Assembly: GCA_050311575.1 (NCBI GenBank)
Contig: JBNOKO010000001.1
Coordinates: 722,239-786,238 of the forward strand
From: Candidatus Krakonobacterium acarorum
GTDB lineage: Bacteria > Bacteroidota > Bacteroidia > SolTP2
Reading direction: 5' to 3'
Length of the DNA stretch: 64,000 bases
Shown: one piece after another, positions 31,208-31,846 of the stretch
How the letters are laid out: every line of letters starts with the position of its first letter
Numbering within the stretch: the stretch's first letter is position 1
Notes under the pieces: generated by a model
Told to the model about the DNA's origin: nothing
What the model saw: the letters and a program-made list of their open reading frames with translations, nothing else
The model's database searches: none
Position numbers and translations under genes: made by a program

Positions 31208-31238
31208 GAATATATTTAGTTAGATAAATAAAATAGTT

Positions 31239-31269
31239 AACTTATTATTAAGTTACTTAATAATAAGTT
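31239..31269. promoter_or_regulatory. perfect 15-16 bp palindrome (aacttattattaagtt / acttaataataagtt) 32 bp upstream of the paralog C start
   Basis: Read directly from the sequence. Candidate operator or structured leader. Confidence 0.35.
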
Positions 31270-31506
31270 TTGTTATTATTAAGTATTAAAAAAATAAAAA
31301 CAATATTTAGGGATAATCCTTTAATTGCAATAATTCTGCTGTCTTTTTGCCATTTGTGTAACTAAATATTCGACGATCCAGGATTAAATAATGATATTTA
31401 TATCTTGTTTGAATTTTATGATCTATTTATTTGAAATTTTGGTGGATAGCCATAGATCAAGTACCTGGATGTTTGATTTTAACAATAGATCTATATATAA
31501 TAATTG

Positions 31507-31544
31507 TAGATGTTAATATATATAACTCGTAATATTAACATCTA
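31507..31544. promoter_or_regulatory. perfect 13 bp inverted repeat (tagatgttaatat ... atattaacatcta) with a 12 nt spacer, in the divergent region between the paralog cluster and the GT39 gene
   Basis: Read directly from the sequence. Confidence 0.35.
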
Positions 31545-31846
31545 TGTATCCACTAAGCTTTACAGTAAATTAATATATCGTCATTGAACATAAAAAATGC
31601 TTCTGGCAGTTACATACACAAGTCGATACAAAAAATTAATTATTAGGTTAATGACTTTTATACTTACGTTAAGATTATGTATTTGACGTACCATTAGTAT
31701 AATTTCAGTAAGTTTATACTATTAGGAATCTAATTATTATATATTAATTATGCATTTAAACTATATAGGCTATATAATGGTGTATAATATATTCCAGACT
31801 AAAACACGAAAGAAGTATATAATTATATAATTATAGATATTTTATA

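What the first reader, a model, noticed from the sequence alone, without database searches (positions are those of the whole stretch)
31208..31846. Divergent control region between the paralog cluster and a GT39 glycosyltransferase, with two perfect palindromes
The 639 bp spacer contains a 15-16 bp perfect palindrome at 31239-31269, 32 bp upstream of the paralog C start, and a 13 bp perfect inverted repeat with a 12 nt spacer at 31507-31544. Shorter nested dyads (atccagg/cctggat; tagatcta) are also present. Palindromes of this quality are candidate operators for a dimeric regulator or structured leaders, and suggest the lipoprotein genes are tightly regulated. The divergently transcribed neighbour is a GT-C family 39 (ArnT/PMT-like) glycosyltransferase, which could in principle modify exported proteins or lipid.
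Basis: seen in the sequence. Interest (0 to 1): 0.5.

Follow-up and report, generated by a model that had tools for sequence, protein, structure and literature searches.

The report
Toxin-gene leader hairpins, not operators
The two perfect palindromes are real, but the first is most likely an RNA hairpin in the leader of pore-forming-toxin genes of a mite gut symbiont, in a genome whose palindromes are kept perfect by a copying-error mechanism, so it is an ordinary regulatory or terminator hairpin and probably not a protein-binding operator.

Summary
Both palindromes exist exactly as described and are far beyond chance. There are three perfect stems of at least 13 bp in the spacer, against 0.002 expected.

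The genome is Ca. Krakonobacterium acarorum, a mite gut symbiont. The "paralogs" are ETX/MTX2 toxin-family lipoproteins.

The 260 bp next to paralog C are homologous and collinear to the region upstream of paralog A. Both carry hairpin 1, then hairpin 2, then a T-rich tract, about 30 nt before ATG. Hairpin 2 has unrelated sequence in the two copies. In A it is a canonical intrinsic terminator. This favours a transcribed structured leader (attenuator or stabiliser) over an operator.

I found no further motif copies, no Rfam match and no nearby regulator.

Perfect symmetry here is mutational. Near-identical strains show a 31-bp deletion that removes the palindrome, two opposite templated arm extensions, and a loop inversion at other palindromes.

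The second palindrome resembles the genome's 3'-end terminator hairpins. Its role is unresolved.

No transcript data were available, so the mechanism is inferred. This is an ordinary kind of element, of modest interest.

The parts
31239..31285 (-). Three-arm palindrome cluster: arm 1 at 31239-31253, arm 2 at 31255-31269 and arm 3 at 31273-31285. As minus-strand RNA it forms hairpin 1 (arm3':arm2', 13 bp, 6-nt loop, -9.9 kcal/mol) or hairpin 2 (arm2':arm1', 14-15 bp, -12.1 kcal/mol). The two are mutually exclusive.
31208..31238 (-). T/U-rich tract (AACTATTTTATTTATC) after hairpin 2, plus the pre-ATG region. It is 75% identical to the paralog-A leader. ATCT(A/T)A sits at -18/-19 in all three paralogs.
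31208..31470 (-). Leader/promoter module of paralog C, homologous and collinear to 28400-28690 upstream of paralog A (159 of 262 aligned columns identical).
   Evidence: (anchored score 37.5 against 4.2 +/- 5.7 in shuffles, 0 of 1000 reaching it; real control regions -10.5 to 14.5)
31289..31296 (-). Candidate Bacteroidota -7 box with one mismatch (TATTTTTT), inside the most conserved block. It predicts a TSS near 31283, the first base of hairpin 1. This is inferred only.
31353..31364 (-). 12-mer TAGTTACACAAA, identical in both leader modules (second copy at 28562-28573). Role unknown.
31507..31544 (.). Second perfect palindrome (13-bp arms, 12-nt loop), just outside the distal edge of the duplicated module. 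It has the same format as the genome's 3'-end hairpins. Function unresolved; it may be an insulating or relic terminator.
28461..28488 (-). Hairpin 1 of the paralog-A leader (TAGTAATAATA / TATTATTACTA, 6-nt loop). It is the counterpart of arm3':arm2' in the C leader.
28429..28450 (-). Hairpin 2 of the paralog-A leader: a canonical intrinsic-terminator shape (GCTGGTTTG CTAA CAAACCAGC followed by TTGTTTTATT), 29 nt before the ATG at 28399.
30212..31207 (-). Paralog C, an ETX/MTX2-family lipoprotein and first gene of the C-B unit.
29158..30186 (-). Paralog B (ETX/MTX2), 25 nt downstream of C.
27377..28399 (-). Paralog A (ETX/MTX2), with its own copy of the leader module.
29085..29126 (-). 21-bp-arm perfect palindrome 31 nt after the paralog B stop codon (terminator type). 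It is perfect but different in each of three strains.
31847..33538 (+). Divergent neighbour: a PMT_2 / ArnT-like GT-C glycosyltransferase.

Best explanation
The spacer is composite. Its C-proximal ~260 bp (31208-31470) is a promoter/leader module that was duplicated together with the ETX/MTX2 toxin-family genes. A second copy sits upstream of paralog A.

In both copies the last ~100 nt before the ATG contain an AT-rich hairpin 1, a stronger hairpin 2, a U-rich tract, and then about 20 nt to the start codon. It shares its middle arm with hairpin 1.

I infer that these hairpins act as RNA in the 5' leader of the toxin mRNAs. Hairpin 1 would sit at or near the 5' end, acting as a stabiliser and, in C, as a potential anti-terminator. 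Hairpin 2 plus the U-tract would act as a terminator-like attenuator or insulator. They would not be binding sites for a dimeric repressor.

Their perfect symmetry is explained by template-switch 'palindrome correction' and related events, which are visibly active in this genome. It does not need selection on a protein operator.

The second palindrome (31507-31544) lies just outside the module and has the format of this genome's gene-end hairpins. It is most likely an insulating or relic terminator between the toxin module and the glycosyltransferase promoter region.

Shown: the anatomy, the homology of the two leaders, the strain polymorphisms and the absence of other motif copies in the window. 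Inferred: transcription of the hairpins, the TSS position, and attenuation or stabilisation as the mode of action.
For: (1) The upstream regions of C and A are homologous and collinear from the ATG. The anchored score is 37.5 against 4.2 +/- 5.7 in 1000 shuffles (none reached it), and nine real upstream control regions scored -10.5 to 14.5 (alignments).
(2) RNAalifold on a structure-blind MAFFT alignment recovers exactly two shared hairpins. In hairpin 2, 4 of 7 shared pairs differ on both sides.
(3) The A-leader hairpin 2 is a textbook intrinsic terminator in the sense orientation, 29 nt before the ATG. The C-leader hairpin 2 is followed by AACUAUUUUAUUUAU.
(4) RNA energies are similar in the two leaders: C -9.9 and -12.1 kcal/mol, A -8.7 and -13.7 kcal/mol.
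(5) The most conserved stretches (75-80%) are the T-rich block just 5' of hairpin 1, hairpin 1 itself, and the pre-ATG tract. A one-mismatch -7 box sits in that block in both leaders and predicts a TSS at the base of hairpin 1.
(6) The operator predictions fail.
(7) 10 of the 17 perfect inverted repeats in the window lie within 80 nt 3' of a stop codon, so long perfect hairpins are this genome's usual transcript-end structures.
(8) Among strains about 99.3-99.8% identical over these loci there is a 31-bp deletion of two arms. There are also two opposite 8-nt templated arm extensions plus a paired substitution at 29085-29126, and a loop inversion at 20231-20282. Published work supports template-switch correction of imperfect inverted repeats to perfect ones (PMC5941160, PMC7202029).
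Against: No transcript data were available, so the TSS, transcription of the hairpins and any termination are all inferred.

There is no perfect Bacteroidota -7 box (TAnnTTTG) on either strand of the spacer. One-mismatch boxes are common in T-rich DNA.

Only two leader copies exist, so covariation has almost no statistical power. In this genome paired changes can arise mutationally, as at 29096/29115, so they do not prove selection.

Hairpins 1 and 2 overlap only in C, not in A, which weakens a shared antiterminator/terminator switch.

The C hairpin 2 is almost pure A:U, and 3 nt separate it from the U-tract, so it is a weak terminator by canonical criteria.

The A. siro strain lacks both C-leader hairpins, so they are dispensable at least there, unless the deletion is an error in a 9x-coverage assembly.

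Palindromes fold equally well on both strands.
Confidence: 0.5

Rival explanations
1. Neutral by-products. The palindromes are non-functional products of a palindrome-generating and palindrome-perfecting mutational process (template switching, snap-back synthesis) in AT-rich, weakly constrained spacers of a reduced symbiont genome.
For: Palindromes are structural-mutation hot spots among strains about 99.3-99.8% identical over these loci. One strain has lost palindrome 1 entirely. Arm 1 looks like a templated inverted copy of arm 2 that replaced what is a different hairpin in the A leader. The spacer is the longest divergent spacer in the window, with no detectable coding remnant.
Against: A hairpin persists at the same two leader positions upstream of paralogs whose proteins are only 38% identical. 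At the second position the sequences are unrelated, and both are followed by a conserved T-tract. Most other long palindromes in the window sit precisely at gene ends, which argues for function as a class.
Confidence: 0.22
2. Operators. This is the first reader's main idea: the perfect palindromes are binding sites for a dimeric transcription factor that tightly represses the toxin operon and/or the divergent glycosyltransferase.
For: Palindrome 1 lies 31-80 nt upstream of the ATG, where a promoter could be. The three alternating arms could be multiple half-sites. The two leaders share a TAATAATA/TATTATTA core in hairpin 1.
Against: At the palindrome-1 position the A leader has an unrelated GC-rich hairpin. 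The spacing between the shared cores differs (6 against 8 nt) while loop size is kept. There are no extra copies of either arm motif in 64 kb beyond chance: 11 against 9.0 expected, and 19 against 12.6. No DNA-binding regulator was found among the neighbouring genes or the 10 small proteins checked. The palindrome is deleted in one strain. Perfection is explained mutationally.
Confidence: 0.12
3. Relic or insulating terminators. The palindromes, especially 31507-31544, are terminators left from a gene that once lay between the glycosyltransferase and paralog C, or they still block read-through into or out of the toxin module.
For: Palindrome 2 has the stem and loop format of the gene-end hairpins (stems 14-21 bp, loops 10-17 nt). 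It lies just beyond the distal edge of the duplicated module. In the same way, the paralog-B terminator lies upstream of the A module.
Against: A profile of the three paralogs finds no coding remnant in any frame of the spacer. Neither strand has a good U-tract after palindrome 2. The plus-strand fold of 31415-31585 is better (z -3.15) than the minus-strand fold (z -1.75), which does not fit a minus-strand terminator.
Confidence: 0.12
4. Invertible promoter (phase variation) or replication origin.
For: Long-range inverted repeats exist in the spacer: 31493-31505/31732-31744 (13 nt perfect) and 31212-31229/31352-31369 (16 of 18). Two TATCCAC heptamers flank palindrome 2.
Against: Three independent assemblies have the same orientation. 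No recombinase gene is nearby. There is no DnaA-box cluster and no GC-skew switch. By my own estimate from base composition, inverted repeats of that size at any distance are near chance level in 78% AT DNA.
Confidence: 0.02

Closest known systems
5'-leader intrinsic terminators / transcription attenuators (terminator versus anti-terminator hairpins)
   Same: A stable hairpin followed by a U-rich tract lies in the sense orientation between the likely promoter and the start codon. In the C leader an upstream hairpin shares one arm with it, the classical mutually exclusive layout.
   Different: No sensor was identified: there is no conserved leader peptide, no Rfam riboswitch or T-box, and no RNA-binding protein gene. 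The C stem is almost entirely A:U. In the A leader the two hairpins do not overlap. Transcription through the element is unproven.
5'-terminal stabilising stem-loops of bacterial mRNAs (ompA-type)
   Same: Hairpin 1 begins within a few nt of the TSS predicted from the conserved -7-like box in both leaders.
   Different: The TSS is only predicted. There are no half-life data and the RNase repertoire was not examined.
Perfect inverted repeats maintained by template switching (quasipalindrome correction; PMC5941160, PMC7202029)
   Same: Strain comparisons show multi-nucleotide templated conversion of a flank into the complement of the other flank, a paired substitution that keeps symmetry, a loop flip, and a deletion between direct repeats flanking a hairpin.
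   Different: Those studies concern Proteobacteria and E. coli reporters. Here the process is seen in natural strains of a reduced Bacteroidota symbiont, and for the finding's own palindrome only the deletion is observed directly.
Palindromic operators of dimeric repressors
   Same: Perfect dyad symmetry close to a start codon in a divergent intergenic region.
   Different: The sequence is not shared with the paralogous promoter at the same position. No regulon copies were found in the window, no regulator was found among the neighbours checked, and the element is dispensable in one strain.

Membership tests
Intrinsic (Rho-independent) terminator / attenuator | Stable G+C-containing stem-loop immediately followed by a U-tract on the transcribed strand | tested here: inconclusive
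   The A-leader hairpin 2 meets it fully: 9 bp with 5 G:C pairs, a 4-nt loop and the tail TTGTTTTATT. The C-leader hairpin 2 (palindrome 1) is 14-15 bp at -12.1 kcal/mol, but has only 2 G:C pairs, and 3 nt separate it from UAUUUUAUUUAU.
Intrinsic (Rho-independent) terminator / attenuator | Lies inside a transcribed 5' leader, downstream of the TSS | not testable with these tools
   No transcript data were available. There is only a one-mismatch -7 box at 31296-31289 and 28504-28497.
Intrinsic (Rho-independent) terminator / attenuator | Alternative anti-terminator structure sharing an arm with the terminator | tested here: inconclusive
   Met in the C leader, where arm 2 pairs with either arm 1 or arm 3. 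Not met in the A leader, where the hairpins are separate.
Transcription-factor operator palindrome | Recognition sequence conserved at co-regulated or paralogous promoters | tested here: not met
   At the palindrome-1 position the A leader carries an unrelated sequence. For hairpin 1 the core spacing differs.
Transcription-factor operator palindrome | Further copies of the motif in the genome (a regulon) | tested here: not met
   Tested in the 64-kb window only: 11 matches against 9.0 expected at up to 3 mismatches, and none at 2 or fewer outside the palindrome except one inside a gene. The arm of palindrome 2 gave 19 against 12.6. The whole genome was not searchable.
Transcription-factor operator palindrome | Cognate DNA-binding regulator | tested here: not met
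   None among the neighbouring genes or the 10 small proteins of the window scanned against Pfam. The rest of the genome was not examined.
Known cis-regulatory or small RNA family (Rfam) | Match to a covariance model at or near the gathering score | tested here: not met
   Only two tRNAs pass the gathering score in the window. The best hits in the spacer have E of 4-9 and are 33-50 bits below threshold.
Bacteroidota sigma-A promoter | -7 box TAnnTTTG upstream of the gene | tested here: not met
   There is no perfect box on either strand of the spacer, while 7 other transcription units (six protein genes and a tRNA gene pair) in the window have one 14-99 nt from their start. One-mismatch candidates exist.
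Invertible (phase-variable) promoter | Flanking inverted repeats, a nearby site-specific recombinase, and both orientations observed | tested here: not met
   The orientation is the same in the CZ, A. siro and SRR25400109 assemblies. No recombinase is in the neighbourhood.
Template-switch-maintained perfect inverted repeat | Clustered multi-nucleotide changes that are the reverse complement of the opposite arm or flank, or paired changes that keep symmetry | tested here: met
   Shown at 29085-29126 and by the loop inversion at 20231-20282. For palindrome 1 itself only a 31-bp deletion between 12-bp direct repeats is seen.
GT39 (PMT) glycosyltransferase (the neighbouring gene) | Match to a PMT/GT-C family profile, and a specific CAZy GT39 assignment | tested here: inconclusive
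   Pfam PMT_2 PF13231 at E 1.9e-15, 57.9 bits against a cut-off of 26.1. NCBI calls it an ArnT-family glycosyltransferase. NCBIfam gave no hit. CAZy family was not tested.

The most novel reading that the evidence does not exclude
The ~260-nt module upstream of paralogs A and C could be an undescribed cis-regulatory leader RNA that switches pore-forming-toxin genes of an arthropod gut symbiont on and off. It would work by conditional termination. In the C copy, the three-arm palindrome would act as a kinetic anti-terminator/terminator switch. The natural 31-bp deletion in the Acarus siro strain would be a constitutive (or dead) allele.
Probability: 0.15. Interest if true: 0.55.

Novelty: new member of a known kind. 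Interest (0 to 1): 0.3.

Why it matters
If the leader hairpins do gate expression, they would be the first handle on how this recently described mite gut symbiont controls its lineage-specific ETX/MTX2 toxin-like lipoproteins. Those proteins are candidates for host or competitor interaction.

There is also a general methodological lesson. In this genome perfect dyad symmetry is produced and renewed by template switching on very short timescales: three strains carry three different perfect versions of one palindrome. "Palindrome quality" is therefore not evidence for a protein operator, and paired "compensatory" changes are not by themselves evidence for selected RNA structure.

Tried and rejected
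- **Rfam:** at gathering score and at E up to 10, nothing relevant.
- **Similarity of the spacer to plasmids and phages:** one 37-nt AT-rich chance hit and no phage hit.
- **Degraded fourth paralog or other pseudogene in the spacer:** tblastn and a profile HMM of the three paralogs against six-frame translations gave nothing above noise.
- **Small ORFs in the spacer:** 10 ORFs of 20-41 aa. None is conserved between the two leader modules, and two tested by exact look-up are never called as genes anywhere. Mini-ORFs MAKRQQNYCN (C module) and MVNFDF (A module) end at an aligned TAA. They differ in sequence and start, and lie about 40 nt upstream of hairpin 1. I judged them chance.
- **Regulon search for both arm motifs and for the conserved 12-mer:** no extra copies in the window. 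nhmmer found no third copy of the leader module.
- **Comparative genomics with other species:** the best glycosyltransferase relative in 185,579 species genomes is at most 36% identical, with no synteny expected. The toxin family has no homologues outside this symbiont in the k-mer-seeded search of 5.8 billion proteins, even with a profile. Conservation could therefore be assessed only between paralogous leaders and near-identical strains.
- **oriC / DnaA boxes:** rejected.
- **Invertible promoter:** rejected.
- **Sigma-70 consensus scan:** uninformative in this AT-rich Bacteroidota genome, with 29 hits against 33 expected.
- **Expression information for these genes:** nothing in the genome paper or its held supplements.
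- **Metagenome scan:** not run, because the protein searches, which include JGI data, showed no relatives.

Full report
**Source and context.** The window is from the Czech assembly (JBNOKP010000002.1) of the Solitalea-like symbiont of the mould mite Tyrophagus putrescentiae. This organism was recently named Candidatus Krakonobacterium acarorum. It is a 1.2-1.3 Mb, ~32% GC Bacteroidota gut symbiont, known from three assemblies with 99.3-99.9% ANI (PMC12323627).

The three "paralog" genes are 27377-28399, 29158-30186 and 30212-31207, all on the minus strand. They encode lipoproteins of the ETX/MTX2 aerolysin-like pore-forming toxin family (PF03318, E 1e-17 to 1e-25). The divergent neighbour (31847-33538) hits Pfam PMT_2, and NCBI names it an ArnT-family glycosyltransferase.

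- Palindrome 1 has 15-bp arms (31239-31253 and 31255-31269) around one central base.
- Palindrome 2 has 13-bp arms (31507-31519 and 31532-31544) and a 12-nt spacer.
It pairs 13/13 with 31254-31266. The first site is therefore three alternating copies of one ~13-15 nt unit, which can form two mutually exclusive hairpins.
- The 639-bp spacer (21.8% GC) has three perfect stems of at least 13 bp, against 0.002 in 1000 dinucleotide shuffles.
They are not conserved in the homologous sequence described below.

**Long perfect palindromes are a genome-wide feature.** The window has 11 perfect stems of at least 13 bp against 0.12 expected, and 17 of at least 11 bp against 1.24 expected. Ten of the 17 lie within 80 nt downstream of a stop codon. 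Examples are 27286-27335, between the convergent uvrA and paralog A, and 29085-29126, 31 nt after the paralog B stop.

These are the genome's transcript-end hairpins, with stems of 14-27 bp and often 10-17-nt loops. The palindromes in this finding are positional exceptions. They precede start codons (paralogs C and A) or sit in the middle of a divergent spacer.

**The key result is a duplicated leader module.** The ~260 nt upstream of paralog C (31208-31470) are homologous and collinear to the ~290 nt upstream of paralog A (28400-28690).
- An alignment anchored at the ATG scores 37.5, against 4.2 +/- 5.7 for 1000 shuffles (none reached it). Nine real upstream control regions scored -10.5 to 14.5.
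- 159 of 262 aligned columns are identical. That is about the same as the nucleotide identity of the coding regions, whose proteins are only 38% identical.
- nhmmer finds no third copy in the window.

Both leaders have the same architecture just before the ATG:
1. A conserved T-rich block.
2. Hairpin 1. In C it is TACTTAATAATAA-CAAAAC-TTATTATTAAGTA. In A it is TAGTAATAATA-AAATTA-TATTATTACTA. Both have 6-nt loops. The single G:C pair is inverted between the two.
3. Hairpin 2.
4. A conserved T-rich tract.
5. About 20 nt that include an ATCT(A/T)A motif, which is also present before paralog B.

In the A leader it is an unrelated GC-rich stem (GCTGGTTTG-CTAA-CAAACCAGC) followed by TTGTTTTATT. That is a canonical sense-strand intrinsic terminator 29 nt before the ATG.

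RNAalifold on a structure-blind alignment recovers exactly these two hairpins. In hairpin 2, 4 of 7 shared pairs are changed on both sides. RNA energies are -9.9 and -12.1 kcal/mol (C) and -8.7 and -13.7 kcal/mol (A).

Structure and position are shared while sequence is not. This is what a structural, RNA-level element predicts and what a protein operator does not.

**Tests of the operator/regulon idea.**
- Neither arm motif has extra copies in 64 kb beyond chance.
- The only exactly shared 12-mer (TAGTTACACAAA) occurs just once in each module.
- No DNA-binding regulator is among the neighbours or the ten small proteins checked.
- No Rfam family matches.

**Promoter.** There is no perfect Bacteroidota -7 box (TAnnTTTG) in the spacer. 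Seven other transcription units in the window (six protein genes and a tRNA gene pair) have one 14-99 nt from their start.

One-mismatch boxes lie in the most conserved block of both leaders, at 31296-31289 and 28504-28497. They would place the TSS at the first bases of hairpin 1. This suits a 5'-terminal stabilising hairpin, but it is only a prediction.

**Strain comparison changes how "perfect" should be read.** I recovered the same locus from the Acarus siro assembly (L017) and from Logan contigs of run SRR25400109 (L012, L019, L020).
- *Palindrome 1.* SRR25400109 keeps all three arms. The A. siro assembly has a clean 31-bp deletion between the 12-bp direct repeats ACTTAATAATAA. This leaves a single arm and no hairpin (-1.9 kcal/mol). 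The A leader serves as an outgroup and retains hairpin 1, so the deletion is derived. An error in a 9x-coverage assembly cannot be excluded.
- *Paralog-B terminator (29085-29126).* Each strain has a different, perfect version. CZ has 21-bp arms. A. siro has 29-bp arms, because the left flank was rewritten as the reverse complement of the right flank. SRR25400109 also has 29-bp arms, because the right flank was rewritten to match the left. It also carries a paired G>A/C>T change inside the arms.
- *Hairpin 20231-20282.* The 14-nt loop is inverted between strains.

These are signatures of template switching and intramolecular recombination at inverted repeats. This process is known to convert imperfect repeats into perfect ones (PMC5941160, PMC7202029).

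Two consequences follow. First, perfection is not evidence for an operator. Second, paired changes are not by themselves evidence of selection, so the covariation between the two leaders should be weighed cautiously.

**Second palindrome.** It lies ~40 nt beyond the distal edge of the duplicated module and is identical in all strains, which is uninformative at ~99.5% identity. It has the format of the gene-end hairpins.

Neither strand has a convincing U-tract after it. The surrounding 171 nt fold better as plus-strand RNA (z -3.15) than as minus-strand RNA (z -1.75). No coding remnant of a lost upstream gene is detectable. The palindrome may be an insulating or relic terminator, but its role remains unresolved.

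**Rejected ideas.** An origin of replication, an invertible promoter, mobile-element ends and leader peptides were considered and rejected.

**Verdict.** The "operator" reading is not supported. The "structured leader" reading is supported by paralogous conservation of a two-hairpin plus U-tract architecture.

My best explanation (confidence ~0.5) is a transcribed 5' leader with a terminator-like hairpin and a 5' stabilising or anti-terminating hairpin, whose perfect symmetry is mutationally maintained. The main rival (~0.22) is that the palindromes are neutral products of that same mutational process.

Nothing here falls outside known kinds of elements, so interest is modest. What is still missing is transcript-end mapping, which could be done with the metatranscriptomes that already exist for this system.

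Noticed in passing
window 27377-31207: The three tandem 'paralogs' are ETX/MTX2 (aerolysin-like) pore-forming-toxin-family lipoproteins (PF03318). In a k-mer-seeded search of 5.8 billion proteins, even with a profile of all three, the only hits are the three genes themselves in strains of this symbiont. This looks like a lineage-restricted toxin family in a mite gut symbiont.
   Followed up: partly
window 29085-29126 (L017 9234-9329; L012 1380-1452; L019 1-80): The terminator palindrome of paralog B is perfect but different in each of three near-identical strains. 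Arms are 21 bp in CZ and 29 bp in A. siro (left flank templated from the right). They are also 29 bp in SRR25400109 (right flank templated from the left), which carries a paired G>A/C>T substitution as well. This is a clean natural example of template-switch palindrome extension.
   Followed up: yes
window 20231-20282: The 14-nt loop of a 19-bp-stem gene-end hairpin is inverted (reverse-complemented) between the CZ strain and the A. siro and SRR25400109 strains.
   Followed up: partly
L017 8213-9242 (window ~29684); window 34453; window 30212: In the A. siro assembly paralog B is split by a +1 G in a G-run. The glutamate dehydrogenase gene has a +GG insertion and is not called. Paralog C loses its stop codon and gains 4 aa. 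This is either toxin-cluster decay in that strain or errors in a 9x-coverage assembly.
   Followed up: no
window ~31173 (L020 640-660): The SRR25400109 strain has a 9-bp in-frame tandem duplication (ATAATTTAA) in the signal-peptide region of paralog C. It adds an FKL repeat.
   Followed up: no
window 9456-9504: A 19-bp-arm perfect palindrome lies in the longest spacer of the window (8667-9906, 1240 bp, no ORF of 100 aa or more listed). Each arm contains a perfect Bacteroidota -7 box (TAGATTTG) pointing into the loop.
   Followed up: no
window 38239-38283: A 14-bp-stem, 17-nt-loop hairpin sits between two tandem minus-strand genes, 8 nt after one stop codon and 12 nt before the next start. The long hairpins therefore cannot all be efficient terminators.
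   Followed up: no
window 2911-2964: A 27-bp-arm perfect palindrome with no spacer lies 17 nt after a stop codon. It is the longest in the window and is followed by two overlapping 11-bp inverted repeats.
   Followed up: no
window ~33806-33952 (L020 3278-3424): The 423-bp 'spacer' between the glycosyltransferase and the glutamate dehydrogenase gene contains a called 48-aa gene with a CcmD_alt (PF20077) hit. It corresponds to ORF 33791-33952.
   Followed up: no
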